DNA of 64,000 nt from the UHGV virus genome UHGV-1366123, one strand, 5' to 3'. Below are positions 8,106 to 53,215 of the stretch, piece by piece (position 1 is the first letter of the stretch; the number at the start of each line of letters is the position of its first letter). Made by a program: the position numbers and the translations under genes. This DNA is from a virus. The notes beneath the pieces are model-generated. The model had not been told where the DNA came from, made no database searches, and saw nothing but the letters and a program-made list of their open reading frames with translations.

Positions 8106-9875
8106 ATGGCAAAAACTATCTTTAACGGAAACGCAAAGAGTTTTTCAGAGATCAACCAATTCATAGGAAACTTTGATAAATCTGGTGGTCTGCTCTCTGA
8201 ACACACAACAGCAGAAATCCGAGAATGGGTTCACACAGGTTCTTATGTCCTCAACGCCTGCATATCGGGATCAATCCTCAAAGGTGTACCTTCTGGCAGA
8301 ATCATCACAATATCTGGTGATCCAAAGACTGGGAAATCCTTCGTTCTTCTGTCATGTATGGCACAGTTACAAAAGAAGGGTTATTTCTGCATCTACTTCG
8401 ACACCGAGAACGCCACAAGCTATGACAGATTCATAGCACAAGGTGTTGATCCTCAAGGCGTACGTGTGATTGTACCAGAGACTGTGGCAGACATCACTGT
8501 ACAGCTCACACAGCTCACACAATCACTGCTTGACACCAAGAAGGAATACGAGCAGAAGAACAAGAAGCTTTCCGAAGATGAAAAGCTCGAAATCCCAAAG
8601 GTTGCAGTTTTCATCGATTCACTTTCTGCACTGAACTCATCGAAGCAATTCTCCGATGCTCTAAGTGGTGAAATGAAGCAGGACATGGGGACAGTAGCCA
8701 AGGAAATCAAGCTTCTGTTCAACATGATCACACCTCGTCTTGGGAAGCTCGACATCCCAATGCTCTGTACTGCACATGAATACGAAGCCGATCAAGGGTA
8801 TCAGAAAGTTCGTGTAACAAGCGGTGGTAAAGGGATCACTTACATGGCATCTGTTCTTGTATCTCTTCGTAAGAAGTTCGACCGAGATGAAAACAAGCAG
8901 AAGATGGGTGTCATTGTAACGGCAGGGATCAACGAATCTCGATTCTCGATTCACAGACCAGTAGAGTTTTACATCTCCTTCACAAAGGGGCTTAATGCTT
9001 ACATGGGTTTGCAGGAATTCGTATCATGGAACATCTGTGGGATCGATCGAGGGAGAATGGTGGCGTATATCGACACTGCATCAGAGATATCGAAGAAGAT
9101 CGGTCTTGACAAAACGAAGACTTACTCGACGAAGGAAATAGAACGAGAACTTGCACAGGCAAAGAAGCAAACGTTCTATCAATCTCTGTCATACGACCTC
9201 TACAATGGTCATATTCGAATTGTATCGTCAGATAACACGATCGTACTGCCCGACCTCGTACGTATGATGGAGCAAGATGGGTTTGACTTCACAGAAGATC
9301 TCGAAACAAAGACGATCAAGGACAAACTGATCGTGCACGGCATCTATTCTGATGAAGCAATGGCGAAGATGATCTCGAGCTATATCGACAGCGGTGATGC
9401 TTATATGGTCGGGAATGTGAAACTCGACGTTGCAAAGAATCAGAAACTCAAGTTCAAGAAGTCGATCATCCAGTCGATAAATGATAATTCTTACGAGGAA
9501 AGACTCGTGGAAGTCGAATCTGAACAGACGCAGGAAATCAACGAAAAGAAGGATCAGAAATTCGTATTCACCGAGAAGTTCTTCACAGAAAGATTCGAAG
9601 ATGGAAAGCTTATCCCATCGTCTGTCGAGAAGGTCTGTTTCCCCACACCTACTGGGACTGAATGGGTAGTCCGACATCTCAACAAGTCCTTCAAGAATCT
9701 GGAAATCTTCAACAAACATGTCTTCACTGACGAAATCTTGAAAACGCTTGATGAGAAGGTCATGATTCCTCTGTTCTCTTACAGAGATAAAGAATATGAG
9801 GACATGGACGGTGATCTTTCAAACACCGATATTGAAGAACTTTCCGAAATGGACAAGATTATGAGCGGATTATGA
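8106..9875 (+). CDS. RecA-family recombinase (T4 UvsX-like) with ~200-aa C-terminal extension
   Basis: Walker A GDPKTGKS, Walker B VAVFIDSLSAL, RecA-core order as in UvsX; 589 aa against ~390 aa for UvsX. Confidence 0.7.
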   Translation: MAKTIFNGNAKSFSEINQFIGNFDKSGGLLSEHTTAEIREWVHTGSYVLNACISGSILKGVPSGRIITISGDPKTGKSFVLLSCMAQLQKKGYFCIYFDTENATSYDRFIAQGVDPQGVRVIVPETVADITVQLTQLTQSLLDTKKEYEQKNKKLSEDEKLEIPKVAVFIDSLSALNSSKQFSDALSGEMKQDMGTVAKEIKLLFNMITPRLGKLDIPMLCTAHEYEADQGYQKVRVTSGGKGITYMASVLVSLRKKFDRDENKQKMGVIVTAGINESRFSIHRPVEFYISFTKGLNAYMGLQEFVSWNICGIDRGRMVAYIDTASEISKKIGLDKTKTYSTKEIERELAQAKKQTFYQSLSYDLYNGHIRIVSSDNTIVLPDLVRMMEQDGFDFTEDLETKTIKDKLIVHGIYSDEAMAKMISSYIDSGDAYMVGNVKLDVAKNQKLKFKKSIIQSINDNSYEERLVEVESEQTQEINEKKDQKFVFTEKFFTERFEDGKLIPSSVEKVCFPTPTGTEWVVRHLNKSFKNLEIFNKHVFTDEILKTLDEKVMIPLFSYRDKEYEDMDGDLSNTDIEELSEMDKIMSGL

Positions 9876-11607: not shown

Positions 11608-11705
11608 GTCTCCGAACTCAAGGAAGGTACTTTCCTTGCACTCTGATGGTATTGGTGGTACTTACATAGCATCGAAGGCAAGAAAGCCCAAGGAAAAGGC
11701 AAAGA

Positions 11706-11750
11706 GAAAGCCCAACAACTTCTATCAAGTTGTTGGGCTTTCTCGTTATT
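11706..11750. terminator. Bidirectional terminator hairpin between convergent genes (14-bp stem)
   Basis: GAAAGCCCAACAAC/GTTGTTGGGCTTTC. Confidence 0.6.
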
Positions 11751-16883: not shown

Positions 16884-17360
16884 ATGCTTCAAAATCCTAA
16901 TCCGAATAACGTCAGAGGTTATAAACAAGGTTACTACATTCCAATCAATAAGGACAAGTTTGTTGGTCATTTGAATAAAGAAGGTGTTCCGTACAGATCA
17001 TCTTTGGAACTCAAGTTCATGAGACTTATTGATTCGAATCCGAATGTAGAAAAGTGGACATACGAACACCCCGACACAAAGATCTCATATTTCGATCCAA
17101 TGATGCAAAAACAGAGGACTTATTACCCAGATTTTTGGATGCAGATGAGAGTGAAGGGAGAACTTAAAACGTTCCTCATAGAAGTAAAACCCTACTCTCA
17201 AACCCAGATTCCGAAGAAATCTACAAGGAAATCGAAATCGACATATAGTAGAGAACTACAGACAAATCTGAATGTTGAAGTAAAGAGAAGATCTGCAGAA
17301 AAGTTCTGTGCAGAGAGAGGTTGGAAATATCTCTTTGTGACAGAGAAGTTCTTCAAGTGA
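16884..17360 (+). CDS. Head completion protein (T4 gp4-like, nuclease-like fold)
   Basis: SSLELKFMRLIDSNPNVEKW ... YYPDF ... LIEVKP ... AEKFCAERGW aligns block-for-block with T4 gp4. Confidence 0.65.
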   Translation: MLQNPNPNNVRGYKQGYYIPINKDKFVGHLNKEGVPYRSSLELKFMRLIDSNPNVEKWTYEHPDTKISYFDPMMQKQRTYYPDFWMQMRVKGELKTFLIEVKPYSQTQIPKKSTRKSKSTYSRELQTNLNVEVKRRSAEKFCAERGWKYLFVTEKFFK

Positions 17361-17386
17361 AGGATACCTCTTCTGATTAAAGAGAG

Positions 17387-17470
17387 GTACTTTCCTTGAG
17401 CTTGGAGGTACTTGGAGGTACTTTCACCCCACCGATAATTCTCGAATGCAAGGAAAGTACCTCTCTTTAA
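17387..17470. repeat. MITE-like hairpin element, 22-bp perfect TIRs TTAAAGAGAGGTACTTTCCTTG / CAAGGAAAGTACCTCTCTTTAA
   Basis: seen in sequence; family recurs at 10 or more loci. Confidence 0.7.
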
Positions 17471-17527
17471 TTCGACAAACCAGAATAACTTCGAAGGTTG
17501 ATCTAAAGACAATCCCGATATACAGAA

Positions 17528-17563
17528 AAGGCGACAACTCTCTAAATCGAGTTGTCGCCTTTT
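17528..17563. terminator. Bidirectional terminator (13-bp stem AAGGCGACAACTC/GAGTTGTCGCCTT plus U-tracts on both strands)
   Basis: seen in sequence. Confidence 0.65.
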
Positions 17564-17708
17564 CAACAACAAAAAGTGGTATCACATACGATGTTGTCCC
17601 TCATTGATTCGAACAAAGACTAACAGAGCCAAGGTCTGTTGTGCTACCATTACACCAAAGGACAATTCGAATGTCCCTCCGCCGTCTACTACGTTCAAGG
17701 GACTGATG

Positions 17709-17783: not shown

Positions 17784-17871
17784 AGACGTAGTGAGAGGTT
17801 TCGCTCCTCTGAATATCTTCATCAAGAAGCACTACGTTTGATAAAAAGGTGGCGAGTTGTCCATACTCTTC

Positions 17872-17944
17872 TCAGTCTGGTAGGATTCGAACCTACATCA
17901 TCTAAGAACCACCTTATAGGAATTTCCGATTATTCTACAGACTG
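17872..17944 (-). tRNA. tRNA-like sequence with canonical acceptor, D and T arms but a non-canonical anticodon arm (probable pseudo-tRNA)
   Basis: T arm GTAGG-TTCGAAT-CCTAC, acceptor CAGTCTG/CAGACTG, D stem GAAT/ATTC; no 5-bp stem with 7-nt loop can be drawn in the anticodon region. Confidence 0.4.
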
Positions 17945-18310
17945 AACAACAAACGATAATGAAGATTCAAAATGCTGAATATCTGCAAATCGGAAACTAT
18001 GATTGATTCATCTTTTAGACAGCTATGGACAATACCGAATGGGGTATCAAACCAGTAACTTGAAGATTTTTATAGATTGCTGTAAGTCCATAATCTAAAA
18101 GACGTTTTTTCTATCTTTTTCGTCGAAATCTTTACTGCAGACGTTATCTATGAGCCAATTATGAAGATTCTGTTTGCTGTGTGTCTACAGATCCCGACAT
18201 TAAGAATTCTTTAAAAGAACGCTTTGTGAATGATGACTTCCCAGTGGACTACGTAGTTTTAGGAGCAATTGCATAGTAATTTGCTGTGAATCCAATAGAT
18301 CATCATTTTG

Positions 18311-19340: not shown

Positions 19341-20294
19341 TCATTTAGTCGTAGTTTGTTTCTTCTTGATGATCATTCTAAAATAAGTCTGCTCGCCATT
19401 CACAGACAAATATTTCCCGTCGTTTCCCCTTCTGGATGTCACAATCTCAAATTGTTGAGGATTGAATTTATACAAGAATGTTATCGGAACCCCCATGCAA
19501 CCATTGTAATCTCGTGGTATATCCTTGACCCTATCGACATTTATACCATCATAATTGTCGTATTTGGGATATTCATGTTCGTGTCCATAGTAGTTTTTTG
19601 TAAGCGGAATATCTTCATGTCGCATAGAGTGGTTCAAATTCGTAAACCACAGACAATTATTGGTGGGCGTGATCATATTACCAGATTCGTCCATCCATGT
19701 TTTTTTCATGTAGGGTTCATAATGGGCTGGTATGATAAACCCAGAAAATTCGTTCCCACGATTTACACCAAGCCATGCCTTACCATCTTGAACGGATTTG
19801 AAGATTTCTTTGTTGGTGATAGAATTGATATTCCCAATAATGAGAAAGAGCTTATCGTATCTGATCAGTTGTGTCATATATTCACGGAACAACGAAAATG
19901 GTGGATTTGTAACAACTATGTCAGATTGTTCCAGCAAATCGATACTTTCTTGACTACGAAAGTCGCCATCACCATTGAAGTAAACAACATCAGCTGTCTT
20001 TGGATCTGTATCGACGAGTTCTGTCCCTGTGTATTCAAAGAAAAAACCACGACTGTTTTCCTTATAACAAGATGCAATCACCTTCCGAAGTCCCAATTCT
20101 TTGAAATTGGAAACGAAGTATTTGAAAAAGTTACTCGTCAGAGGATCATCACAATTGCAATACACAACTTTCCCTTTAAAATGGCTTTCATAATGTCGCA
20201 ATTCTCTTTCGATATCAATAAGTTGCGTATAGAACTCGTCGTTCTTTTGCTTTCTAGCATTACGAAGTAACTTGCTGGTTGTTGCCCTTGCCAT
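19341..20294 (-). CDS. N6-adenine DNA methyltransferase, EcoRI-methylase family (orphan)
   Basis: N-terminus MARATTSKLL..KNDEFYTQ..VVYCNCDDP..SNFFKYF..LGL.K.IASCY closely parallels M.EcoRI; motif IV IVVTNPPF present; no restriction enzyme gene adjacent. Confidence 0.8.
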   Translation of the reverse strand: MARATTSKLLRNARKQKNDEFYTQLIDIERELRHYESHFKGKVVYCNCDDPLTSNFFKYFVSNFKELGLRKVIASCYKENSRGFFFEYTGTELVDTDPKTADVVYFNGDGDFRSQESIDLLEQSDIVVTNPPFSLFREYMTQLIRYDKLFLIIGNINSITNKEIFKSVQDGKAWLGVNRGNEFSGFIIPAHYEPYMKKTWMDESGNMITPTNNCLWFTNLNHSMRHEDIPLTKNYYGHEHEYPKYDNYDGINVDRVKDIPRDYNGCMGVPITFLYKFNPQQFEIVTSRRGNDGKYLSVNGEQTYFRMIIKKKQTTTK

Positions 20295-20419
20295 ATTTCC
20301 GTCTTTTAATATAAATCTTCAGAATAGAGAATCGTCTTATCTTTTACATCTTCTATTTGATCAGCTTCTTTAGCTATCTTACAAACTTCATACCTATCAA
20401 CAAATATCACTTTAGAAGT

Positions 20420-20595
20420 GTAGAAGCCTTATCGTATGTGAAAAATCTGCGTTTTATCCAGTTCTCACTTCTTGTTTCAACCTGCCATTACTTTTTAGGA
20501 ACACGAGGTTCGGTCATCCATAAGAGGGCAGTCCGCAAGCGTAAATTCGGTGCTACGAACACCTACTCGATTTTTTATATGTTAGACAGTTTGAA
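20420..20595 (-). ncRNA. Putative TnpB omega-RNA (reRNA) scaffold region at and beyond the 3' end of tnpB
   Basis: Inferred from IS200/IS605 biology; locally GC-rich, structured segment (GGAACACGAGGTTCGGTCATCC...GGTGCTACGAACACC) immediately 3' of the tnpB stop. Confidence 0.35.
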
Positions 20596-21724
20596 GTTTT
20601 CTTTGTCCTTCAATGAGAATGTTCTTCGAAGCGTTTATATCTCTGTCGTGATATTCACCACATTCGGGACAAGTCCAAAACCTATCACCGAGTTTCAAGT
20701 CTTTCTTCTTGTAACCACAACATAAACAAGTCTTTGAACTTGGATAGAACCTATTGATAAGAACAACTCGCTTATCATTCATAAGAGCCTTATATTGCAA
20801 TATCGACTTGAACCGATAAAATCCAGACTCTTGGATAGCATTCGCAAGATAACGATTTCCAAGCATCCCTTTAATATTCAAGTCTTCCATGAACACCACG
20901 TCGTATGATTTGAGGATCTCGTTCACAACTGAGTGGATGTAGTTCTCTTTCTTGTTCGTTATATTCGCAATCACTTTTGCAAGTCTGATTCTCTGTTTGT
21001 TCCTATTGTTTGAACCTTTGACCTTTCTGGATAGTTGACGATGAAGTCTTGTGATCTTCTTTTCCTCCTTCTTGAAGAAGTGTTTGTTTTCAAACACAAA
21101 TCCATCAGAGGTTATGACGAAATCTTTCACACCAAGATCAATACCGACTTGCTTGTTGGTCTTTTCAAACTTTACAAATTCTGCTTCGGGAATGTCGATA
21201 AGGATTGATAAGAAGAAATTCCCACTCTTGGTTTTCGAGAGAGTTGCACTTCTTATGTTATCTTTGTACTTCTGTAAGCGTTTGTGATACAAGTCAGAAC
21301 AACGGAATCTGAGTTTTTGAAGAGAAGTGATTAGTGTTATATGTTTCGTTTCGAAAGTGTTCCTCTTTGAAATAGCATTACGAGGAAACAATGCTGATTG
21401 TTTGTCTTTCTTTGATTTAAACTTTGGAAAGCCTTTATGATGATTGAAGAAGTTTTGATAAGCACCGACCATCTGTTTGATTGCTTGGTTCATCACCTTT
21501 GTGTTCTGTTCTCTCAACCAAGCATATTGTTCATCTTTCAACAATGATCCGTGGAAATATTTCGATAGATCGCTTTCGCTTAGGTTTGTCTTGTCCGTTT
21601 CATAAGCCTTTTGTTTTCTATCGAGCATGTGATTATAGACAAAACGATAAGCACCAAGAACCTTGTTGAGTTCTTGTTCCTGCGCTTTGTTTGGATATAA
21701 CCTTATTTTAATCGCTCTAAACAT
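20582..21724 (-). mobile_element. tnpB: TnpB (IS200/IS605 OrfB-family RNA-guided nuclease), intact, no tnpA present
   Basis: N-terminal IRLYPNKAQ..YRFVYNH; RuvC-I GIDLGVKD, RuvC-II FMEDLNIKGM, zinc finger CLCCG...CPECG, RuvC-III DRDINASKNIL; all catalytic residues present. Confidence 0.8.
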
Positions 21725-22212: not shown

Positions 22213-22279
22213 TGCTTCGTGAAGGATTCGAACCTTCATCAATTCCGTCGAATCGCTCTGGCCATTGAGCTAACGAAGC
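22213..22279 (-). tRNA. Short (67-nt) tRNA-like element: perfect acceptor, D and T arms, anticodon arm collapsed (pseudo-tRNA)
   Basis: Acceptor GCTTCGT/ACGAAGC, D arm GCTC-AATGGCCA-GAGC, T arm GAAGG-TTCGAAT-CCTTC; only 17 nt between D and T arms. Confidence 0.35.
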
Positions 22280-22589: not shown

Positions 22590-23135
22590 TTAGAACGTTT
22601 TACTGTATCCAAAAACGTCGGAAAGATCTCTCAGAGAATCATTCATAAGTATCTCGTGGACATTGTTGTAAACCGTACCAAGAAGATTCGATCCTCTCCA
22701 TTTCGATTTATCAACTATACGAATATCAGTTTCAGAAAGTCCACATCCCCAGATTTTGTCATAAGGACTGGCTTCTACAAACTCATAACCTTCATTAATT
22801 AGTTGTGTGTAGTGATCTCTGATTTTCTTTGAAGATCTTAGTTTCATCAGTACCACAAAGAGCATCACATCATATCTGACAGATGACCAACGACCATCAT
22901 TGTAGTTTCGAACAAGTCTTCCAAGCTCTTTACAAAAACGTGGGTTATCAGAATTCTTGAGGATCTGCATTGCGATATCTTCGTCTCCGAAGTACTTTGC
23001 TTTCAAGAACATGAACAATGATTCACCGCAATGGAAAACAAGACCATTATAGTTGATCTCGGATTTATAGAAGTTGCTGTAAAAATCCGAACCAGTGAAG
23101 AAAGTCACCAATTTATGATCTTTGAAAATCTTCAT
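22590..23135 (-). CDS. NADAR-domain protein (YbiA/DUF1768 family; ADP-ribose N-glycosidase-like)
   Basis: FFTGSDFYSNFY ... GESLFMFLKAKYF ... RWSSVRYDVMLFVVLMKLRS ... LINEGYEFVEASPYDKIWGCG matches YbiA blocks (F-SNF, SEHYFQAQKF, W..V...VM...L..KF, LL.T....LVE.S..D..WG.G). Confidence 0.75.
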   Translation of the reverse strand: MKIFKDHKLVTFFTGSDFYSNFYKSEINYNGLVFHCGESLFMFLKAKYFGDEDIAMQILKNSDNPRFCKELGRLVRNYNDGRWSSVRYDVMLFVVLMKLRSSKKIRDHYTQLINEGYEFVEASPYDKIWGCGLSETDIRIVDKSKWRGSNLLGTVYNNVHEILMNDSLRDLSDVFGYSKTF

Positions 23136-23157
23136 CGTGTCTCTTGTTCTTTTTTTG

Positions 23158-23230
23158 TGATTCCAGTGGGGCTTGAACCCACAACCCCTGCATTAAAAGT
23201 GCAGTGCTCTACCTGTTGAGCTATGAAATC
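23158..23230 (-). tRNA. tRNA-Lys (anticodon TTT)
   Basis: Acceptor GATTTCA/TGGAATC, D arm GCTC-AACAGGTA-GAGC, anticodon stem CTGCA/TGCAG, loop CTTTTAA, T arm GTGGG-TTCAAGC-CCCAC. Confidence 0.7.
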
Positions 23231-23370
23231 TAAACCATTGTTCTAAGCGAATCTCTTCAAGTGAATGATTAATCGCTTCGGTATTCTTATTGTGAATGTC
23301 AAGATATTAGTTTCAATGATAGTTACCAACAGCTATTGGAGATTATCAACAAATATTAGCAGTTCCCATG

Positions 23371-23446
23371 CCAAGAAGACCCCCCCCCGATGAATTGATT
23401 CTTTTTTATCAAAAAGAATCAATTCATCGGGGGGGGGTCTTCTTGG
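23371..23446. repeat. 76-bp perfect palindrome: 36-bp stem (CCAAGAAGA-C9-GATGAATTGATTCTTTTT) around a TATC loop, with C9/G9 homopolymer tracts
   Basis: seen in sequence; every position pairs. Confidence 0.9.
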
Positions 23447-23464
23447 AGATTATCGTTTATGGGT

Positions 23465-23520
23465 GAAGATTGAAGATTGAAGATTGAAGATTGAAGATTG
23501 AAGATTGAAGATTGGCTTCC
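23465..23520. repeat. Microsatellite (GAAGATT)x8
   Basis: seen in sequence. Confidence 0.95.
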
Positions 23521-23573
23521 GCATATTGAAGAAATGTGTTAAAGTGTATTATCAACTGATACGCTTTAAAGGA

Positions 23574-23657
23574 AGGTATTTTCCTTGCGCTCTGAGAGGT
23601 TCAAGAATATGAAAATAGCGGAGAATAGATCAGAGCGCAAGGAAAGTACCAAGGAAA
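23574..23657. repeat. MITE-like hairpin element copy (TIRs GGAAGGTATTTTCCTTGCGCTCTGA / TCAGAGCGCAAGGAAAGTACC; loop carries GAAAATAGCGGAG core)
   Basis: seen in sequence. Confidence 0.7.
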
Positions 23658-24060
23658 GCCAAGGAGACATATCCTTTGGAATGATGGGTTTCTGTCGGGA
23701 GACAATGACTATTTCCAAGGATTATGAGAAGACTATGACAATAATGGAGGACAATGGAAGATTATCAATGACTTGAAAGACAATGGTTGGAAAATGACTG
23801 ATTTTTAGAGGATTATCAGAGGACTATCTTTTGGAAAATGGTTGGTGATTATCGAATTAAAGGAAGGTACTTTCCTTGTCCTCGAAGCTATTCGAGAATA
23901 TGAAAATAGCGGAGACCATACTCGAGTTCAAGGAAAGTACCAAGGAAATCCAAGGAGACATATTTTCGAGGATTATGGTCTCTGTGGCTAATGGGAGGAA
24001 TATCTTGGAAAGAGAATATCAGTTTAAAGGTGTTAAAAGGTGTTAATCTGTTCGGGGATT
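23640..24060. repeat. Left iteron array: GACAATG / TGACAAT / GACTATGACAAT repeats (reverse complement of the right arrays)
   Basis: seen in sequence. Confidence 0.7.
23867..23941. repeat. MITE-like hairpin element copy
   Basis: TTAAAGGAAGGTACTTTCCTTG ... CAAGGAAAGTACC; loop GAGAATATGAAAATAGCGGAGACCATACTCGAG. Confidence 0.7.
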
Positions 24061-24070
24061 TAGTGAAGGT

Positions 24071-24170
24071 CTTTTTTAAAGTTTTACGCATGCGTTTTTT
24101 AAAGTTTTACGTGCGTGCGCTTTTTTTTGGAGTTTCACGCATGCGTTTTTTAAAGTTTCGCAACACGCAC
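24071..24170. repeat. Four tandem ~25-bp repeats TTTTTTAAAGTTTTACGCATGCG (each with a GCATGC or GCGTGC palindromic core); a fifth variant lies at 24376-24405
   Basis: seen in sequence. Confidence 0.85.
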
Positions 24171-24236
24171 CTGGTACTTTTGGTTTAAACTGGAGATTTA
24201 AAAACATGCGCACGACATGTTTCTGCGCTCAATGTA

Positions 24237-24289
24237 TGGTTTGGGGCAGCCTGGCTTGGCACTATCGTGCCAAGGCTGACCCCAAACCA
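24237..24289. repeat. Imperfect 26-bp palindrome TGGTTTGGGGCAGCCTGGCTTGGCAC-TATC-GTGCCAAGGCTGACCCCAAACCA, same TATC centre as the 36-bp palindrome
   Basis: seen in sequence. Confidence 0.8.
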
Positions 24290-24420
24290 GTTGTAAATAC
24301 TTTGTATTTACGATAAAACTGGAAAAAAATAACGCATGCGTATACGGGTATACACGGGAATTCGCGCGTTTTTTCAAAGTTTCGTGTATACGCACGGTTT
24401 GTCGGCAAATTCCGAGATTA

Positions 24421-24720
24421 GTCTGATTATCTTTCAATTTCAGTCTTTCAATTTTCAACTTTCCATTCAAAATCAGTTAACAATTCTTAACAATTCTCTG
24501 TTCTTGGAATGATTATCTTTCAATTTCAATCTTTCAATCTCTCTTTGAATAATCATCCATTGTCTTTCCAAGAATCATAGTCTTTCCAAGAATCATAAAT
24601 ATCTCGGGAATCATCAATGGTCTCTTTCAATTGTTCTGGTCTGTTCTGGGATTAAAAAGACTAATTTTGATTTTCAACTTTCCCTTTCCACAATAAAACC
24701 ATTTAGTGATTGTCTTTTGT
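24421..24720. repeat. AT-rich block of short direct repeats (TCTTTCAAT, TTCAATTTCA, TCTTTCCAAGAATCATA x2)
   Basis: seen in sequence. Confidence 0.7.
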
Positions 24721-24839
24721 CTTCAAAACGATTATCATTAAAGGGGCGGAAATCTATGATTCAGACAAAAGTCATCTTCTATTAACAAATCTTTAGAGAA
24801 TTCTTTCAATCTTTAGAGAAATTTTTCAAAGAGACTATG

Positions 24840-25017
24840 ACTTTTTCTATTGTCTTTGATAATCTTTTCACGATCCTCTATTGTCTTGGTGATTCTTTGA
24901 TGATCAGTCATTGTCTTTGATTATGGTTGATTGTCTTCCATAGTCTTCTGATAATCACTGACAATAGTCATTGTCTTCCGACAATCATACCACCATTCAA
25001 CAGAATACCTCTTCTGA
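24840..25017. repeat. Right iteron array 1: (A/C)(G)TCATTGTCTT(T/C) and GATTGTCTT repeats
   Basis: seen in sequence; three segmental copies follow. Confidence 0.75.
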
Positions 25018-25112
25018 TTACAGGAAGGTACTTTCCTTGCGCTCTGATCCATTTTCCGCTATTTCTATCCCACCGAATGTCTTCGAGGACAAGGAAAGTA
25101 CCTTCCTTTAAT
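25018..25112. repeat. MITE-like hairpin element copy with its loop inverted relative to the 23574 and 23867 copies
   Basis: TTACAGGAAGGTACTTTCCTTGCGCTCTGA ... TTCCGCTATTTC ... CAAGGAAAGTACCTTCCTTTAA. Confidence 0.7.
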
Positions 25113-25159
25113 TCAACCATTCTCAACCATTTTCTGGTAGATCATCTTCATAATCATTC

Positions 25160-25356
25160 AAAGAACCAGTTGTGAAGACGGTCATCATTGTCTTTCCATA
25201 ATCCTTTGATGGTCAGTCATTGTCTTTGATTGTTTTCCATAGTCAGTCATTGTCTTTGATTATGGTCGATTGTCTTTCCATAGTCTTCTCATAATCCTTC
25301 GAAATAGTCATTGTCTCCCGACAGAAACCCATAATCCTCGAGAATATGTCTCCTGA
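25160..25356. repeat. Right iteron array 2 (GTCATTGTCTTTGAT / GATTGTCTTTCCATAGTC units)
   Basis: seen in sequence. Confidence 0.75.
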
Positions 25357-25450
25357 TTACAGGAAGGTACTTTCCTTGAACTCGAGTATGGTCTCCGCTA
25401 TTTTCATATTCTTGAATATCTCAGAGCGCAAGGAAAGTACCTCGTCTTAA
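25357..25450. repeat. MITE-like hairpin element copy; loop is the inverted form of the 23867 copy
   Basis: loop AACTCGAGTATGGTCTCCGCTATTTTCATATTCT is the reverse complement of the 23867-copy loop. Confidence 0.7.
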
Positions 25451-25454
25451 TTAA

Positions 25455-25695
25455 TGAATCAGAACTATTGTCTCTTCATAGTCTTCTGATAATACTTCAA
25501 TAATCGTCCATTGTCTTTCAATAATCAGCCATTGTCTTCCGATTATGGTCGATTGTCTTTGATGATTGTTGATTGTCTTTGATGATTGTTGATTGTCTTC
25601 CATAATCAGTCATTATCTTGGATAGTCTTCCATAATCCTTCGAAATGGTCTATTGTCTTCGGATGATGACCCATAGTCCCCGAGAATACCTCTCC
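25455..25695. repeat. Right iteron array 3, including GATGATTGTTGATTGTCTTT x2
   Basis: seen in sequence. Confidence 0.75.
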
Positions 25696-25699
25696 TTGG

Positions 25700-25792
25700 C
25701 TCTCCTTGGTACTTTCCTTGCATTCTGATACACTTTCCGCTATTTTCATATTCTCGGGCTATTTCGAGGACAAGGAAAGTACCTCTCTTTAA
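25700..25792. repeat. MITE-like hairpin element copy
   Basis: CCTTGGTACTTTCCTTGCATTCTGA ... CAAGGAAAGTACCTCTCTTTAA. Confidence 0.65.
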
Positions 25793-25927
25793 TTCACAAC
25801 TCTGTGACCATTTCTCCAGCCAATTTTCTGATTATTGCTGGAAGGTCAATGTTTGGATACAGATGTGGGGAGAAGAAATCAAACTTCTCCCCACATTCTT
25901 CTTTTTGATTTGTAGGTTTCTTTTCTT

Positions 25928-27577
25928 TTAGTGAATGGTTCTTCTTTTAAGGAAACTTTCGTTGATTTCTCTGAAAAGTGATCTTGATTTCTTGTCCAAG
26001 TTCAATGGATCACGACAATCGTCGATTATGAAGAACTTCGAAGGTGTCTTCACAAGGGATTTCGACATGATGTAAGAATGATAAGTTTCATCAACTTCGT
26101 GATTTGCGACACGGATCTGTCGAATTGCGTATTTCCCAGTGATAAGTGAAACCTGTCCATCAATCTCCAAAACAGATGATCTTTCTCTATAAAGAAGTTT
26201 CATGACCTTCTCCAATGGTTCTGTATGATTAAGCAAACTCTTGAGAATTGTTGAATCGTTATCATTTACAGAGTAAACGTTGAACCTCATGAATCCGTGC
26301 TCATTGTTGATCCCTACGACAACACAATAGAACTTTCTCTTCTCAAGATCAACGTTCAAAGAGAATGAATATTCACCACTGACGACTATGTTCTTTGTCG
26401 ATATAGAAATTGAGAATGGTTTCCCATCAACTTCGATCACCTTCGAAAGACTCTCGTCGAGAAGTTCTATCCAGAACATGAATGACAATCCCTGCTTTGA
26501 GGAAACTCTCTGTTGATACTTGATAGCTGTTTCTCCAGTTTTCCCTACTGACATGTCGTAGATGAACTTCCCAAGTGAATTTCCATTGTTATCATAGTCA
26601 CATCTTTCAGATTTTACAAGACTTGGATCGAACTCTGAGTGCAAGAGATCATCGATACCTACGTTGTCCAGATTTTGTTTCGTGTTCTGTATGTCTTCCA
26701 TTTCGTCCAGCTGTTCATCTGAATAGTCGTCGATTTTCACGTTTTCTTTTAAAAACTGGAGATCATCGTCTCTTTTGTCGACATTCGTCATGTCCTCATA
26801 CTTCTTGATTGTACAGACATAGAAGCTTCCATGTTCACCTATCCCATGATTCAGATAAACGTCTTGGATCATGTACATTCTGTTAATCTCTGAGAAGTAA
26901 AGGTAGTCCATTCTTCTTGGTTCTTCTCGGACACCAAACACTTCTTCGAAATAGGTCTTCTCAAAGTAAACTTCCAGTTTTTCAAACTCGATCCCCCATT
27001 GTGAAAATTCGTGCCGAGGTTCTGGGATCTGGTTGTCTTTCAAGACAACTTTGAGAATCTTCATCGCCACAACATTGTGCAACGAATATTCTCTTAAGAA
27101 TTCATCTTTGGACTTCAAATCTGGATTTGTGTGCCAATACTTAACACTCACCGCTGAATGTTGCTGGATGTAATAGTTCATGTCGATCTCCAGCTTCTGA
27201 AGACCTATCGACATTCGAGCATAATCTTGAAGAGAATCCACACCAGACAGCAGGAACGATTCTCCTTGATCTATAAAAGTCGTCTGTGGAGATTTGTACT
27301 TAATAAGTGGCTTCTCGATCTCTATTTTTGATCCTAAGAAGTTCTCCACGAGGACATATCTGACTTTGATGTATTTTCCGTGGATTCCAACAAGAGAATC
27401 TCTGTTATACGCTTTCCACGTATCCCAATTTTTCCCATCGGAAGATGTTGTATAATCTCGAAGAAGCAAGGAAGATGAGTTTTCACCTTCCACTTTCTCC
27501 ATGACATATTCGATCTCTCTTGCGGATTTCTCTATATCGAATATAGCAACAGAACCTACGGTCTCCAGTTTTTTCAT
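25928..27577 (-). CDS. hypothetical large protein (possible structural protein)
   Basis: Long ORF; start placed at the internal Met (MKKLETVG...) to avoid overlap with the convergent phosphoesterase gene. Confidence 0.45.
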   Translation of the reverse strand: MKKLETVGSVAIFDIEKSAREIEYVMEKVEGENSSSLLLRDYTTSSDGKNWDTWKAYNRDSLVGIHGKYIKVRYVLVENFLGSKIEIEKPLIKYKSPQTTFIDQGESFLLSGVDSLQDYARMSIGLQKLEIDMNYYIQQHSAVSVKYWHTNPDLKSKDEFLREYSLHNVVAMKILKVVLKDNQIPEPRHEFSQWGIEFEKLEVYFEKTYFEEVFGVREEPRRMDYLYFSEINRMYMIQDVYLNHGIGEHGSFYVCTIKKYEDMTNVDKRDDDLQFLKENVKIDDYSDEQLDEMEDIQNTKQNLDNVGIDDLLHSEFDPSLVKSERCDYDNNGNSLGKFIYDMSVGKTGETAIKYQQRVSSKQGLSFMFWIELLDESLSKVIEVDGKPFSISISTKNIVVSGEYSFSLNVDLEKRKFYCVVVGINNEHGFMRFNVYSVNDNDSTILKSLLNHTEPLEKVMKLLYRERSSVLEIDGQVSLITGKYAIRQIRVANHEVDETYHSYIMSKSLVKTPSKFFIIDDCRDPLNLDKKSRSLFREINESFLKRRTIH

Positions 27578-31517: not shown

Positions 31518-31520
31518 GCA

Positions 31521-38383: not shown

Positions 38384-38390
38384 ACGACTT

Positions 38391-38483
38391 CACGGAAGGC
38401 ACTTTCCTTGCGCTCTGAAGATTTCGGTGTTGTTCTCATAGCTCTTTGATATACAGAGCGCAAGGAAAGCACCTCGTCTTTAT
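38391..38483. repeat. MITE-like hairpin element copy abutting the truncated terminase ORF
   Basis: CACGGAAGGCACTTTCCTTGCGCTCTGA ... CAGAGCGCAAGGAAAGCACCTCGTCTTTAT. Confidence 0.7.
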
Positions 38484-38497
38484 CCGAAGATATATTC

Positions 38498-38551
38498 GAA
38501 AACCGATTGGGGTCATCTGATGCTATTTTCAGATGACCCCAATCGGTTTTC
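38498..38551. terminator. Bidirectional terminator (22-bp stem GAAAACCGATTGGGGTCATCTGA/TCAGATGACCCCAATCGGTTTTC)
   Basis: seen in sequence between convergent genes. Confidence 0.75.
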
Positions 38552-38567
38552 TTATTTCTCTTTCCTT

Positions 38568-43931: not shown

Positions 43932-43983
43932 CAAGAGAGCCACATCTGGAAGTGTCCCAGATGTGGCTCTCTTGCTTTTTCTT
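43932..43983 (+). terminator. Strong terminator (18-bp stem CAAGAGAGCCACATCTGG/CCAGATGTGGCTCTCTTG followed by CTTTTTCTT)
   Basis: seen in sequence. Confidence 0.8.
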
Positions 43984-43984
43984 A

Positions 43985-44046
43985 TACTTTCCGCTATGAA
44001 ACTATTCTTCGATATCTTCGAGTGCAAGGAAAGTACCTCTCTTTAA
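43985..44046. repeat. MITE-like hairpin element, right half only (loop core TTCCGCTAT plus CAAGGAAAGTACCTCTCTTTAA)
   Basis: seen in sequence. Confidence 0.55.
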
Positions 44047-45551
44047 GTCGTAATGTTCAAGACATCGATCACATTTTCGACATCGTTCTCTATTATGACG
44101 AAATAGAGCTTACGATTCGCATTTTTAAGAATCGTAACAGACGTGTTTTCTTCCATTATGAACATGTACTCACGAGCCGACAGCTCTTCACTCACCACGT
44201 TCTTCATATAGTGCTTCTGCCCATAGTCATCAACATAGACGAGGAAAGCACGATGATTGTTGTTCTGTGATTCTACACCTTTCAGATTTATCCTGTAGGT
44301 CGATCTAAATGGCGTGACGTGGATGTCCTTCTTGTCGGTTGTGATATCGGTAACGTTTACGTACTTTGTGATATACTTCGTCTTTATGACATCGTTTGAC
44401 ACCTCACGTATGTTCTTATCTGAAGATCTCGCAATTTTCTGCACAACTCTTATGTTTTGTAAAGGTGCTTGAAGTTTTACCAGTTTCCCTTGGAAGGCTT
44501 GGATATCTCTTGTGCTTATTGATGCTTCAACGCTCATACCATTTGCGTTATAAGCATTCATCAAAGTCATCTTGTAGTCGATACTGACCGAGATCACACC
44601 CTTGTTCTCTATCACTGGTCTGAACTTGAAGATCTTGTCAAAGTCAGTGTTCTGTACAGTTACCCACGTATCCTGCTCAATGAAAGAGTTACCAACCTGT
44701 TCAACAACTCTTATCTCGTGTTGTACAAAATAAGAGTTCTTTGACATCGAGTTTAGTCTGTACATGAAGTCCTCGAAACTCATACCTTCAAAACTTCCCG
44801 AGAACTCAACACAAGTCTTGTCTTCCGAAAATCTCAGTTCTGCGCTTAACGATTTGTATTCGTTCCCAATCGGAAATGATGACCGATGCTTGTTGTATGT
44901 TTGGAATACCTTGAATCCGTTCTCTACGTGAAGATTTCGGATTTCATAAGTCTCGACATGTAGAACACTGTCAATAACCATGTCCTGACCGAACACTCTC
45001 TTTACCATTTCTTCATCTGTTCGAGAATATTCGAGAATATCGTCAATGCTTATTATGTCAAACTCGATGTATCTGTCAAAGACTGATTCTGTGATTCTCT
45101 TGGGAGATTTTGCGTACGTCACATCACCTATTCGTGGAGAGAAGACGACAATATCTGCCAAATTGAAAACTTTCTCGGTGTCTCTGATGAAAAGGTTTAT
45201 TCCAATACCTTCTATGTTCTGCAGGTTATATCCACAAAGAAGATGAAGACGAACCTTGTTGTATTTCATCTTGTCATAAAACCTAAGATCACATTTCTCA
45301 TCTTTGAATATGGTGTTGTGATCGGATAGTTTCTGACCCTGTTCATCGATAGCCATTGTGTCATGCCTGTCTGTGATGAGGTGTACTTTGTCGATACTGT
45401 TCCCAGTTCCCTTCTCGTTATACAGAGTACATGTGCCGTCATATTCCGAAGTTATTCTACGAAGTCGAACATCGGTATCGTGTTTTTCTGACGCACTTGC
45501 AACGAATTCAAGTAGAAGTTCTGTACTTATTCGTATGTATCGTGAATTCAT
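44043..45551 (-). CDS. hypothetical late structural protein (502 aa)
   Basis: late promoter motif upstream (minus strand). Confidence 0.5.
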   Translation of the reverse strand: MNSRYIRISTELLLEFVASASEKHDTDVRLRRITSEYDGTCTLYNEKGTGNSIDKVHLITDRHDTMAIDEQGQKLSDHNTIFKDEKCDLRFYDKMKYNKVRLHLLCGYNLQNIEGIGINLFIRDTEKVFNLADIVVFSPRIGDVTYAKSPKRITESVFDRYIEFDIISIDDILEYSRTDEEMVKRVFGQDMVIDSVLHVETYEIRNLHVENGFKVFQTYNKHRSSFPIGNEYKSLSAELRFSEDKTCVEFSGSFEGMSFEDFMYRLNSMSKNSYFVQHEIRVVEQVGNSFIEQDTWVTVQNTDFDKIFKFRPVIENKGVISVSIDYKMTLMNAYNANGMSVEASISTRDIQAFQGKLVKLQAPLQNIRVVQKIARSSDKNIREVSNDVIKTKYITKYVNVTDITTDKKDIHVTPFRSTYRINLKGVESQNNNHRAFLVYVDDYGQKHYMKNVVSEELSAREYMFIMEENTSVTILKNANRKLYFVIIENDVENVIDVLNITT

Positions 45552-48612: not shown

Positions 48613-48623
48613 AAAAGATAACC

Positions 48624-48699: not shown

Positions 48700-48712
48700 G
48701 TCTATCAACGAG

Positions 48713-53052: not shown

Positions 53053-53097
53053 GATGACCTCAAGAGAACCTCTCTCTTGAGGTCATCGCTTATTTGC
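53053..53097 (+). terminator. Terminator (15-bp stem GATGACCTCAAGAGA/TCTCTTGAGGTCATC)
   Basis: seen in sequence. Confidence 0.65.
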
Positions 53098-53165
53098 CCT
53101 ACTTTCATCCCAAAAGATTGATCAGAGAGCAAGGAAAGTACCTTCCTGTGATAAGGAAAGTATTC
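53095..53165. repeat. MITE-like hairpin element, degenerate or half copy (TCAGAGAGCAAGGAAAGTACCTTCC)
   Basis: seen in sequence. Confidence 0.5.
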
Positions 53166-53215
53166 TTCTGTGATAAGAATCACAGAGGACACTAAAAAGA
53201 TAGATCACAAAACTT

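What the first reader, a model, noticed from the sequence alone, without database searches (positions are those of the whole stretch)
17387..17470. Genome-wide MITE-like hairpin element family with ~22-bp TIRs (TTAAAGAGAGGTACTTTCCTTG ... CAAGGAAAGTACCTCTCTTTAA) and an invertible-looking core
At least ten full or partial copies are present. The ones I located are at 11619-11700, 17387-17470, 23574-23657, 23867-23941, 25018-25112, 25357-25450, 25700-25792, 38391-38483, 43985-44046 and 53095-53165. They are almost always intergenic and immediately downstream of genes. Several are bounded by TTAA. The ~40-50-nt loop carries a conserved core (GAAAATAGCGGAG) that appears in both orientations in different copies; the 25357 loop is the exact reverse complement of the 23867 loop. 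This suggests either a miniature transposable element proliferating in a phage genome or a structured RNA or regulatory cassette whose core can invert.
Basis: seen in the sequence. Interest (0 to 1): 0.65.

Follow-up and report, generated by a model that had tools for sequence, protein, structure and literature searches.

The report
Conserved paired-arm hairpin repeats in phage
A ~150-kb uncultured phage carries about ten copies per 64 kb of a ~100-base palindromic module that sits beside transcription terminators and in two non-coding arrays. It behaves like a conserved, recombining boundary element and not like an actively jumping mini-transposon.

Summary
The repeat family is real.

**Anatomy**
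- The family-wide invariant is not a 22-bp TIR. It is two 13-14-nt arms, GGTACTTTCCTTG and CAAGGAAAGTACC, in inverted orientation.
- The arms lie exactly 50 nt apart in 73 of 81 copies.
- Most loops carry a central TATGAAAA core.

**Location**
- Four of the five dispersed window copies lie at convergent gene junctions, next to ordinary intrinsic terminators.
- The other five form a 2.5-kb non-coding array.

**Comparison with relatives**
- Every testable site is occupied, from ~90% nucleotide identity down to 57-79% protein identity.
- No empty site and no target duplication was seen. TTAA is not conserved.
- A sister clade (57-64% identity) lacks the family.
- Two unrelated phages carry one to two copies each. 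Bacterial genomes carry none.

**Sequence evolution**
- The arms are as constrained as non-synonymous sites (pi 0-0.04). Loops evolve at or above the synonymous rate, are mosaic, and are flipped at one or two orthologous sites in more distant relatives.
- Covariation is no better than shuffles, so the arm sequence itself is conserved, not just a helix.

**Verdict**
This is a new variant of extragenic palindromic or PeSL-like elements. It is probably a paired recognition site acting as a symmetric boundary and recombination module. An active MITE is not supported, and a programmed invertible switch is unproven.

The parts
17372..17475 (-). Complete element S2, the copy in the finding. Arms lie at 17376-17398 and 17449-17471 and are 100% complementary, with a 50-nt loop. 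It sits between the stop of the TnsA-like gene (17360) and terminator 17525-17564.
   Evidence: I5; 99.5 bits; dG -46 to -48, z about -7.5. Orthologues are aligned.
11612..11715 (-). Degenerate element S1. The arm next to dnaB (11625-11638) is intact and the distal arm is degenerate (CCTTTTCCTTG on the minus strand). It begins 4 nt after the dnaB stop and abuts terminator 11701-11747.
   Evidence: 49.7 bits. The orthologue in L206 is complete.
23561..23657 (+). Array copy 1, in plus orientation, with a right flank of CAAGGAAAG direct repeats.
   Evidence: 85.1 bits.
23852..23948 (+). Array copy 2, in plus orientation.
   Evidence: 91.3 bits.
25013..25116 (-). Array copy 3, in minus orientation. 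The core ATG is replaced by ATA.
   Evidence: I4; 98.0 bits.
25352..25455 (-). Array copy 4, in minus orientation. Its loop matches the reverse complement of the copy-2 loop at 44 of 50 positions.
   Evidence: (102.9 bits).
25701..25797 (-). Array copy 5, in minus orientation.
   Evidence: 88.5 bits.
38384..38487 (-). Complete element S3, between the stop of the TerL-fragment gene (38383) and terminator 38487-38562. GTAC has become GCAC in both arms on the same strand, so the change is not compensatory.
   Evidence: I6; 84.9 bits.
43951..44051 (-). Partial element S4. Only one arm is intact (44025-44046), and it overlaps the stop codon of gene 44043..45551 (minus strand). The rest of the model match overlaps terminator 43932-43974. 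Orientation is ambiguous: the core reads on the minus strand, but the model scores higher on the plus strand.
   Evidence: (43.8 bits on plus, 23.0 on minus).
53054..53178 (-). Partial element S5. One arm is intact (53130-53143) with half a loop. It lies between two co-directional genes, 73 nt upstream of the NAD-ligase gene.
   Evidence: (30.4 and 20.1 bits). The orthologue is in L107.
23240..25900 (.). Non-coding array locus that holds five elements. Two plus-orientation copies lie on the left and three minus-orientation copies on the right, around a centre with 23-nt repeats and a hairpin. The number of units varies among relatives.
11701..11747 (.). Intrinsic-terminator-type hairpin of the GAAA-stem-TTTC kind, abutting S1.
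   Evidence: I8.
17525..17564 (.). Bidirectional terminator-type hairpin 55 nt from S2.
   Evidence: (I22).
38487..38562 (.). Terminator-type hairpin with a 34-nt stem, abutting S3.
   Evidence: I3.
43932..43974 (.). Terminator-type hairpin about 10 nt from the sequence of S4 recognisable by eye (43985-44046); the model match 43951-44051 overlaps it.
   Evidence: I14.

Best explanation
The repeats are a lineage-specific family of conserved extragenic palindromic modules. They are not active transposons.

**What each module is.** Two invariant 13-14-nt arms, GGTACTTTCCTTG and CAAGGAAAGTACC, point towards each other and are held exactly 50 nt apart. That is 64 bp from arm start to arm start, roughly six helical turns. 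The loop usually carries TATGAAAA near its centre.

**Shown:**
- The modules sit at the ends of transcription units, beside or even around ordinary intrinsic terminators. They also sit in two non-coding arrays.
- Their positions have stayed fixed during divergence to 57-79% protein identity.
- The arm sequence is under constraint, while the loops evolve at or above the neutral rate.
- Loops are exchanged between copies by gene conversion, and have been flipped between the arms.
- Recombination between copies adds and removes array units.

**Inferred:**
- The letters of the arms and their spacing are conserved, not just base-pairing. Orientation of the loop is dispensable. I therefore read the arms as a pair of recognition sites for a sequence-specific factor, most simply a dimeric or tetrameric DNA-binding protein. 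A protein that reads the folded stem in RNA is less likely but possible.
- On this reading the module is a symmetric, bidirectional boundary. It would act as a fail-safe terminator or insulator between convergent or adjacent transcription units and around the array centres.
- As a by-product, the ~100 bp of shared sequence serves as a portable homology patch. Through it, loops, array units and occasionally whole modules move between copies and between co-infecting phages. This is analogous to the PeSLs of T4-type phages.
For: **The family is real and has a fixed geometry.**
- The family is well above chance.
- The arm-to-arm offset is 64 nt in 73 of 81 copies.
- The 50-nt spacer is kept even where loops cannot be aligned: L104, L133, L198 and the second L206 copy.

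**Location.**
- Four of five dispersed window copies lie in the six convergent junctions. The chance of this is about 2e-4.
- The copies abut hairpins of the GAAA-stem-TTTC type (relatives).
- In L104 and in the second L206 copy the terminator-like hairpin lies inside the loop.

**Positional conservation.**
- No empty site appears in relatives of about 88-93% nucleotide identity.
- S1, S2 and S3 are occupied in the SRR19906134 phage, which is 57-79% identical at protein level. S1 and S2 are also occupied in L202-L204.

**Constraint.** Nucleotide diversity is:
- 0-0.04 in the arms;
- 0.16-0.27 at third codon positions;
- 0.21-0.35 in the loops;
- 0.16 in the adjacent terminator.

**Sequence is conserved, not structure.**
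- 94.8% of cells pair, but covariation equals the shuffled controls. The only two double changes come from one copy.
- G-U and A-C mismatches are symmetric, 18 against 15 in the core.

**Loops are dispensable in sequence and direction.**
- Loops at S2 are mosaic, with switch points at the core.
- The loop is flipped in L202/L203.

**Neither protein-coding nor a known promoter.**
- There is no three-base periodicity.
- The downstream ORFs are not conserved, and indels are not multiples of three.
- No sigma-70-type site is found, and the Bacteroidota -7 motif is not enriched.
- The phage's own promoter-like motif, TAAATAACGAAA, is distinct from the element.

**Recombination role.** Array unit number differs among relatives, with junctions in shared sequence.
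Against: - No binding protein has been identified. The one weak lead, a ParB-like PHROG hit next to S5, failed in Pfam.
- A shared factor would also have to exist for the unrelated phages L104 and L133. Those phages use Shine-Dalgarno sites, unlike the 150-kb clade, and so probably infect different hosts.
- Frequent gene conversion among about 15-20 copies, together with exchange between phages, could keep the arms uniform with less selection than I infer.
- The predicted RNA hairpins are very stable: dG -32 to -48 kcal/mol, z -4 to -8. An RNA-level role therefore cannot be excluded.
- The TATGAAAA core lies 21 nt after one arm in most subfamilies. It is co-oriented with the gene ending upstream at 9 of 12 sites (not significant, P = 0.15). 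A purely symmetric model leaves this unexplained.
- There are no transcript, read or binding data.
Confidence: 0.45

Rival explanations
1. The repeats are a MITE-type non-autonomous transposon. It spread in an ancestor of this phage lineage, hopped into other phages, and is now immobile or domesticated. The arms would be transposase-binding terminal inverted repeats.
For: - The architecture fits: terminal inverted arms, small size, no coding capacity and many copies.
- Decayed one-arm copies exist (S4, S5).
- The copies sit in harmless sites, namely convergent junctions.
- The family is absent from the sister clade L199-L201, L207 and L208, at 57-64% identity, over about 87 kb of sequence.
- Unrelated phages L104/L154 and L133 carry copies, with 41-46-nt stretches 87-88% identical to S1.
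- In MITEs the TIRs are typically better conserved than the interior.
Against: - No empty site was found at any dispersed site that a relative covers, across roughly ten strains and three deeper lineages.
- There is no direct-repeat target duplication, and TTAA is not conserved at orthologous copies.
- The arms are conserved in place far below the neutral rate, which a dead insertion would not show.
- The exact 50-nt interior length is kept even in unalignable loops.
- No cognate transposase was seen. The resident TnpB has unrelated flanks.
- Neither the two-arm pattern nor the 19-mer arm occurs above chance in 185,579 bacterial and archaeal genomes.
Confidence: 0.2
2. The module works as a plain RNA hairpin in 3' untranslated regions. 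It would act as a barrier to 3' exonucleases, as an RNase III processing site, or as an auxiliary terminator. This is how REP and Correia elements work in bacteria.
For: - The predicted stems are very stable in either orientation.
- At S1, S2 and S3 the element lies between the stop codon of the plus-strand gene and the terminator. At S4 and in L035 it lies between the stop codon of the gene on the other strand and the terminator.
- The elements start 0-20 nt after a stop codon.
- A symmetric hairpin would tolerate flipping of the loop.
Against: - Covariation is no better than in shuffles. Single uncompensated arm changes are common, for example GCAC in both arms of S3 on the same strand.
- There is no strand bias between G-U and A-C mismatches.
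- The outer and inner stem extensions are not maintained.
- A helix-only constraint explains neither an arm sequence that stays invariant across saturated divergence nor an exact 50-nt loop.
- Several copies lie beyond a terminator or between two terminators (L081, L083).
- No Rfam family matches.
Confidence: 0.2
3. The module is a programmed invertible switch (an inverton). A recombinase would flip the 50-nt core between the arms to turn something on or off within a phage population.
For: - The inverted arms flank an asymmetric, conserved core.
- The loop orientation differs at orthologous S2 between L202/L203 and L204 or the window, and probably at S3 in L198.
- A 1.5-kb contig, L184, matches an inversion isomer of the array segment at about 23740-25280.
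Against: - All eight S2 and six S3 orthologues among the close relatives share one orientation.
- The two orientations inside the window are whole inverted units.
- No invertase or tyrosine recombinase was found among the ORFs scanned.
- As far as I know, 50 bp between crossover sites is shorter than known site-specific inversion systems use.
- No promoter was detected in the loop.
- L184 has 1.8x coverage, and an assembler path through inverted repeats is ambiguous.
Confidence: 0.05
4. The module is a start-codon cassette. The ATG lies 21 nt after the left arm in an open 50-nt loop and would start a 16-aa peptide (MKIAE.....KESTFL) or small genes. The hairpin would present or regulate the start site.
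For: - An ATG sits at a fixed offset in most subfamilies, followed by AAA as in real genes of this phage.
- The loop is large enough to hold an initiating ribosome (inference).
- In L104 and L133 a real gene with a Shine-Dalgarno site starts 21-23 nt after an arm.
Against: - There is no codon-position pattern. The 19-nt core is invariant at all three codon positions.
- The ORFs are mostly 16 aa, are not conserved, and are broken by indels that are not multiples of three.
- The ATG is replaced by GTA, ATA or GCA in a conserved subfamily.
- At four window sites the ORF would run antisense into a convergent gene.
- The loop can be flipped.
Confidence: 0.05

Closest known systems
PeSLs (promoter-early stem-loops) of T4-type phages (PMC2839356, PMC4122927)
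   Same: - Both are blocks of about 100 bp of conserved intergenic sequence containing a stem-loop.
- Both begin at the stop codon of the upstream gene.
- Both are repeated many times in a large virulent phage and are concentrated in plastic regions.
- In both, recombination between copies produces indels, mosaics and exchange between phages.
   Different: - PeSLs are defined by a strong sigma-70 promoter next to a short G/C stem-loop terminator, and they lie upstream of ORFs. Here no promoter is detectable.
- Here the repeat is a long-range inverted pair with an exact 50-nt spacer.
- Here most dispersed copies sit at convergent junctions beside separate terminators.
REP/BIME extragenic palindromes of enterobacteria and pseudomonads (my own knowledge)
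   Same: - Both are extragenic, lie just after stop codons and at convergent junctions, and are often close to terminators.
- Both occur in clusters with alternating orientation.
- Both hold their positions among strains.
- For REP/BIME, proposed roles are mRNA 3'-end protection, attenuation and protein binding (gyrase, IHF).
   Different: - REPs are imperfect palindromes of about 35 nt with short loops.
- REPs live in bacterial chromosomes and are mobilised by RAYT transposases.
- The present elements are phage-only and have 13-14-nt arms 50 nt apart. No RAYT was seen.
Correia elements (CREE/NEMIS) of Neisseria (my own knowledge)
   Same: Correia elements are 100-155-bp non-coding elements with 26-bp terminal inverted repeats. 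They are intergenic, their transcripts fold into hairpins that RNase III cuts, and they have a central protein-binding (IHF) site.
   Different: - Correia elements duplicate a TA target and show presence/absence polymorphism among strains. Neither feature is seen here.
- Correia elements are bacterial, not phage elements.
SAS/ESAS repeats of Cluster K mycobacteriophages (PMC3203893)
   Same: - Both are phage-specific conserved repeats that are absent from host genomes.
- Both include paired imperfect inverted repeats.
- Both are conserved at orthologous genes across subclusters.
- For both, the function is unknown but is thought to involve binding of a factor.
   Different: - ESAS inverted repeats are 17 bp long and separated by 4-13 bp.
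- They lie immediately upstream of start codons, in one orientation, and are restricted to one genome arm.
Integron attC sites / Vibrio VCRs (my own knowledge)
   Same: Both are imperfect palindromes of 60-140 bp at cassette 3' ends, arranged in arrays of short units that are gained and lost.
   Different: - Integrons need an IntI integrase and an attI site, and attC sites have the R''/R' consensus GTTRRRY. None of these is present here.
- The array units here are non-coding.

Membership tests
MITE (non-autonomous DNA transposon) | Terminal inverted repeats bounding a short non-coding element present in many copies | tested here: met
   The arms are 13-23 nt, the element is about 94-104 nt, and there are ten loci in 64 kb.
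MITE (non-autonomous DNA transposon) | Target-site duplication flanking the TIRs | tested here: not met
   No direct repeats flank S2 or S3. TTAA belongs to the palindrome and is TCAC or TTAC in the orthologous copies.
MITE (non-autonomous DNA transposon) | Insertion polymorphism (empty sites) among related genomes | tested here: not met
   The flank-distance test shows occupied sites in every relative that covers a dispersed site; S4 had no covering locus. S1-S3 are occupied in the deeper relatives. Only whole-clade absence is seen, in L199-L201, L207 and L208.
MITE (non-autonomous DNA transposon) | A cognate autonomous element or transposase with the same ends | tested here: inconclusive
   The only transposase-like gene in the window is a TnpB with unrelated flanks. 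The rest of the ~150-kb genome was not fully scanned.
Invertible promoter switch (inverton) | Inverted repeats flanking a segment found in both orientations at one locus | tested here: inconclusive
   Between lineages the feature is met at S2 (L202/L203 against L204 and the window). Among close relatives there is a single orientation. Heterogeneity within one sample cannot be tested here.
Invertible promoter switch (inverton) | A site-specific recombinase encoded nearby and a promoter inside the segment | tested here: not met
   No recombinase was found among the scanned ORFs. No promoter consensus is present in the loop.
PeSL (T4-type phages) | Sigma-70-type early promoter within the cassette | tested here: not met
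   The consensus scan finds none in any element. The best candidate, TTGTCC-N17-TATGAA, matches only 8 of 12 positions and lacks the final T.
PeSL (T4-type phages) | A stem-loop plus conserved intergenic sequence that mediates recombinational indels | tested here: met
   Stem-loop. Variation in unit number and mosaic loops.
REP/BIME | Imperfect palindrome of about 35-40 nt with a short loop, associated with a RAYT | tested here: not met
   The arms are 50 nt apart. The family is absent from bacterial genomes. No Y1 transposase was seen in the window.
Intrinsic (Rho-independent) terminator | G+C-rich stem, 3-8-nt loop and a U tract | tested here: not met
   The terminator scan of the array region (23000-26000) does not call any of the five array elements. 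Separate terminator-type hairpins lie beside the dispersed elements.
Any Rfam RNA family | Score at or above the family's gathering threshold | tested here: not met
   Only tRNAs pass the threshold. In E-value mode there is only sub-threshold noise resembling miRNA precursors.

The most novel reading that the evidence does not exclude
The arms are the DNA (or stem) recognition sites of a dedicated phage-encoded factor. Together with that factor they would form a previously undescribed sequence-specific, bidirectional boundary system.
- It would terminate or insulate transcription, or stop replication forks, at unit ends and around two origin-like arrays.
- The fixed 64-bp geometry would be required for cooperative binding.
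- The loop would be a free payload that recombination between the arms can swap and flip. The system would thus double as a vehicle for shuffling modules within and between phages.
Probability: 0.15. Interest if true: 0.7.

Novelty: new variant of a known kind. Interest (0 to 1): 0.45.

Why it matters
Large virulent phages are known to use short conserved intergenic cassettes both as regulatory punctuation and as homology patches for shuffling modules. PeSLs in T4-type phages are the worked example. The comparable punctuation of the uncultured phages related to the Bacteroidota jumbo phages is unknown.

This family offers a clear and experimentally tractable candidate:
- a 13-nt motif pair with rigid spacing;
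- positions at transcription-unit boundaries;
- positional stability over deep divergence;
- visible gene conversion, loop flipping and transfer between phages.

If the arms bind a factor, that would define a new boundary or terminator mechanism. If they do not, the family is still a useful marker for annotating unit boundaries, for explaining why assemblies of these phages break, and for tracing recombination among gut or oral phages.

Tried and rejected
1. **Sigma-70 or Bacteroidota promoter inside the element.** The consensus scan finds none. TAnnTTTG is not enriched, with 31 hits against 43 expected. The phage has a different promoter-like motif of its own, TAAATAACGAAA.
2. **Small-peptide or gene-start reading.** The ATG offset is striking. 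However, there is no codon periodicity, the ORFs are not conserved, and indels are not multiples of three.
3. **Covariation test for an RNA helix.** The result is no better than shuffles, and G-U against A-C mismatches are symmetric.
4. **Known RNA families.** There is no match.
5. **Link to the resident TnpB/IS605 element.** Its flanks are unrelated to the element.
6. **Host origin or a CRISPR-repeat mimic.** The two-arm pattern has 0 hits, and the 19-mer arm has 6 scattered hits at chance level, in 185,579 genomes.
7. **Cultured phages.** There is no blastn match. A literature search for the motif returned only unrelated primer and shRNA hits.
8. **ParB-like protein next to S5.** The PHROG hit is weak (E = 2e-4) and Pfam does not support it.
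9. **GC skew as a pointer to an origin at the array.** The skew only tracks the coding strand.
10. **My interim claim that core orientation is always fixed relative to the flanks.** The L202/L203 copies overturned it.
11. **L151.** This 10+10-nt pattern hit lies in a coding region, looks like chance, and was dropped.
Full report

Yes. The named copy has perfect 23-nt arms at 17376-17398 and 17449-17471, separated by 50 nt. Its true start is therefore 17377, not 17387.

Motif counts are far above chance:
- The 22-mer arm with up to 3 mismatches occurs 10 times against 0 expected.
- The 14-mer AGGTACTTTCCTTG with up to 2 mismatches occurs 18 times against 0.37 expected.
- The 9-mer CAAGGAAAG occurs 20 times against 0.84 expected, and 17 of those lie in the elements.

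I built a covariance model from 30 diverse copies and ran it without filters. Seven are complete: 17372, 23561, 23852, 25013, 25352, 25701 and 38384. Three are degenerate: 11612, 43951 and 53054.

**2. What genome is this?**

- The major capsid protein is closest to Flavobacterium phage MaF61 (39.5% identity). More distant matches are the Lak, PAU and Tenacibaculum jumbo phages.
- Genes lack Shine-Dalgarno sites.
- The only megablast hit to known phages is a 58-bp tRNA match to Prevotella Lak phages.
- Relatives in IMG/VR and in metagenomes are contigs of 144-151 kb that are 88-93% identical to the window.

The window therefore comes from an uncultured ~150-kb phage clade that probably infects Bacteroidota.

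**3. Anatomy across 81 two-arm copies** (window plus relatives)

- The invariant parts are GGTACTTTCCTTG and its reverse complement CAAGGAAAGTACC.
- The arm-to-arm offset is 64 nt in 73 of 81 copies, which means a spacer of exactly 50 nt.
- Just inside the arms, CTC and GAG are usually kept.
- The outer extension (AAAGRRAG and other variants) and the inner extension pair in only about half of the cells. The '22-bp TIR' is thus a property of a few copies.
- Most loops carry TATGAAAA, with the ATG exactly 21 nt after one arm. This holds even in subfamilies whose loops otherwise differ.
- This core defines an orientation, which I call canonical.
- RNA folds are very stable: dG -32 to -48 kcal/mol, z -4 to -8.

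**4. Where the elements sit**

In the window, four of the five dispersed copies occupy four of the six convergent gene junctions. The chance of this is about 2e-4. Each of these lies within 0-55 nt of a separate terminator-type hairpin of the GAAA-stem-TTTC kind: 11701-11747, 17525-17564, 38487-38562 and 43932-43974. The fifth copy (S5) is a one-arm remnant between co-directional genes.

The elements begin 0-20 nt after a stop codon.

Sites elsewhere in relatives' genomes show the same habit. The orders seen are:
- gene, terminator, element;
- gene, element, terminator;
- element(s) between two terminators.

In L104 and in the second L206 copy, a terminator-like hairpin lies inside the 50-nt loop.

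The other five window copies form a 2.5-kb locus (about 23240-25900):
- It has no conserved ORF.
- It is rich in short tandem repeats.
- Two copies in plus orientation lie on the left and three in minus orientation on the right, around a centre with 23-nt repeats and a hairpin.
- Relatives have a second, similar locus next to a DNA polymerase B gene.

**5. Mobility tests**

*Close relatives.* I compared the distance between unique flanks in every relative that covers a site. All covered dispersed sites are occupied (S1, S2, S3 and S5; no locus covered S4). Only the arrays differ, by whole units of about 260-345 bp.

*Deeper relatives.* I reached these through three proteins.
- L202, L203 and L204 (84-85% protein identity) have S1 and S2.
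- The SRR19906134 phage has all three sites:
  - S3 is in L198 (helicase 78% identical), again with an exact 50-nt spacer.
  - S1 is in L206 (DnaB 79% identical).
  - The contig L205 (57% identical) starts and ends inside arms at S1 and S2.
- A more distant sister group has no copy in about 87 kb. This group is L199-L201, L207 and L208, at 57-64% identity and 28-35% G+C where measured (L199-L201).

*Other tests.*
- No target duplication is present. The TTAA at S2 is TCAC or TTAC in L202 and L204.
- The window's only transposase-like gene is a TnpB (20582-21724) whose flanks are unrelated to the element.
- Bacterial and archaeal genomes lack the element, as do deposited phage genomes.

*Transfer between phages.* Two unrelated phage lineages do carry it. 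L104/L154/L179 has one copy, and L133 has one full copy plus one half copy. Both have the same arms and the same 50-nt spacer. They also have stretches of 41-46 nt that are 87-88% identical to S1. They share no detectable protein similarity with the window clade. Those phages use Shine-Dalgarno sites.

So the family arose or arrived in one ancestor, has been positionally stable since, and has occasionally been transferred.

**6. What is under constraint?**

Nucleotide diversity at orthologous S2 and S3:

| Region | Diversity (pi) |
|---|---|
| Arms | 0-0.04 |
| First and second codon positions of neighbouring genes | 0.02 |
| Third codon positions | 0.16-0.27 |
| Adjacent terminator | 0.16 |
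| Outer flanks | 0.11-0.14 |
| Loops | 0.21-0.35 |

The arms pair in 94.8% of cells, but every covariation measure equals its shuffled control. The only two double changes come from a single copy. Uncompensated changes are common; for example, S3 has GCAC in both arms on the same strand. G-U and A-C mismatches are balanced. The letters of the arms and their spacing are therefore conserved, not merely a helix.

**7. The loops are a free and mobile payload**

- At S2 the eight close relatives have identical arms but mosaic loops. L009, for example, combines the left half of L027's loop with the right half of the window's loop, switching at the TTTCAT core. This is gene conversion among copies.
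- In L202/L203 the S2 loop is the reverse complement of the loop in L204, with 25 of 26 central bases identical, while the outer flanks remain collinear.
- In L198, S3 is likewise flipped compared with the window. CACCGA sits at loop positions 32-37 on opposite strands.
- A low-coverage contig, L184, matches an inversion isomer of about 23740-25280. An assembler path through inverted repeats is ambiguous, so I treat this as weak evidence.
- Within the window, the two core orientations are explained by whole inverted units.

**8. Coding and promoter readings**

- The loop ATG resembles real starts of this phage, which often begin ATGAAA. However, variation shows no three-base periodicity, and the 19-nt core is invariant at all codon positions.
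- The ORFs are mostly 16 aa and are not conserved. The sequences between array copies differ by indels that are not multiples of three.
- One conserved subfamily lacks the ATG.
- No sigma-70-type site is found, and the Bacteroidota -7 motif is not enriched.
- The phage has its own promoter-like 12-mer, TAAATAACGAAA. It occurs seven times exactly, always 10-25 nt upstream of an ATG on the right strand.

**9. Interpretation**

*Shown.* This is a conserved, lineage-specific extragenic module at transcription-unit boundaries and in two non-coding arrays. Its arm sequences and spacing are constrained. Its interior is exchangeable and can be flipped. Recombination between copies changes array size.

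*Inferred.* The arms are paired recognition sites for a sequence-specific factor. That would make the module a symmetric boundary (a fail-safe terminator or insulator) and, incidentally, a homology patch for shuffling.

*Rivals.* An ancient, now fixed or domesticated MITE and a plain RNA hairpin both remain possible. Both fit the constraint pattern less well. A programmed switch and a peptide cassette are unlikely.

**10. Comparison with known systems**

The closest known systems are:
- PeSLs of T4-type phages (PMC2839356, PMC4122927);
- REP/BIME and Correia elements (my own knowledge);
- SAS/ESAS repeats of Cluster K mycobacteriophages (PMC3203893).

The family fails a defining test of each. 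It has no sigma-70 promoter, no short-loop palindrome or RAYT, no TA duplication or insertion polymorphism, and no short-spacer inverted repeat upstream of start codons. I therefore class it as a new variant of a known kind and not as a member of any of them.

Noticed in passing
window 6313, 13605(-), 13651, 40372, 45567(-), 51179, 55246 (variants at 4304, 29128, 59032): The exact 12-mer TAAATAACGAAA occurs seven times. Each copy lies 10-25 nt upstream of an ATG on the same strand, including the major capsid gene. It looks like a phage-specific promoter motif and is distinct from the hairpin element.
   Followed up: partly
window 20582-21724 (-) and 20295-20581: There is a TnpB (IS605 OrfB / Cas12f-like) gene with a 288-nt non-coding stretch at its 3' end, which is a candidate omega-RNA. 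It is conserved in relatives, and its flanks are unrelated to the hairpin family.
   Followed up: partly
window 23240-25900: The array locus also holds several other repeats:
- a perfect 36-nt palindrome with a C9/G9 run (23371-23446);
- (TGAAGAT)x7 (23464-23514);
- a 23-nt repeat, TTTTTTAAAGTTTTACGCATGCG, in 3.6 copies (24072-24158);
- a hairpin at about 24236-24290.
The locus looks like an origin or a regulatory region. A second similar locus lies next to polB in relatives, and several assemblies break at these loci.
   Followed up: partly
L184 (ERZ772912, 1.5 kb) against window 23574-26006: This low-coverage contig joins the reverse complement of 24495..23740 to 25280..26006, and is 99.7% identical on the right-hand side. 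It is an inversion isomer of the array centre. It could be a real inversion between inverted units or an ambiguous assembler path.
   Followed up: partly
L008 (relative), downstream of the S2 orthologue: An insertion of several hundred bp carrying an extra ORF lies between two copies of the terminator hairpin that follows S2. It looks like a moron-type gene gain at a duplicated terminator.
   Followed up: no
window 37922-38383: This 153-aa ORF matches only the N-terminal part of large-terminase profiles. It is followed by S3, a terminator and three genes on the opposite strand. The terminase gene may be split or be a fragment.
   Followed up: no
window 17871-17945 and 22213-22279: ARAGORN reports one tRNA with an abnormal anticodon loop (17871-17945). 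Rfam finds a further tRNA at 22213-22279 that ARAGORN misses.
   Followed up: no
L075 ~4130-4250 and L017 ~9330-9450; L207 11440-11600: TGTCAT/ATGACA repeats spaced about 10 nt apart lie upstream of one element in relatives. TATGACAAGTTGTCATA palindromes follow dnaB in the relative L207, which lacks the element. This appears to be a second repeat or operator-like motif family in the wider phage group.
   Followed up: no
window 16884-17360, 19341-20294, 30291-34145: A TnsA-like endonuclease gene lies directly upstream of S2. The window also encodes an EcoRI-type adenine methyltransferase and an SbcCD-like nuclease pair, a palindrome-cutting type, despite the many palindromic repeats in this genome.
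   Followed up: no
window 48617-48706: A 42-nt inverted repeat (90% complementary, 6-nt loop) lies between convergent genes and has no hairpin element beside it. It shows that not every convergent junction carries the family.
   Followed up: no
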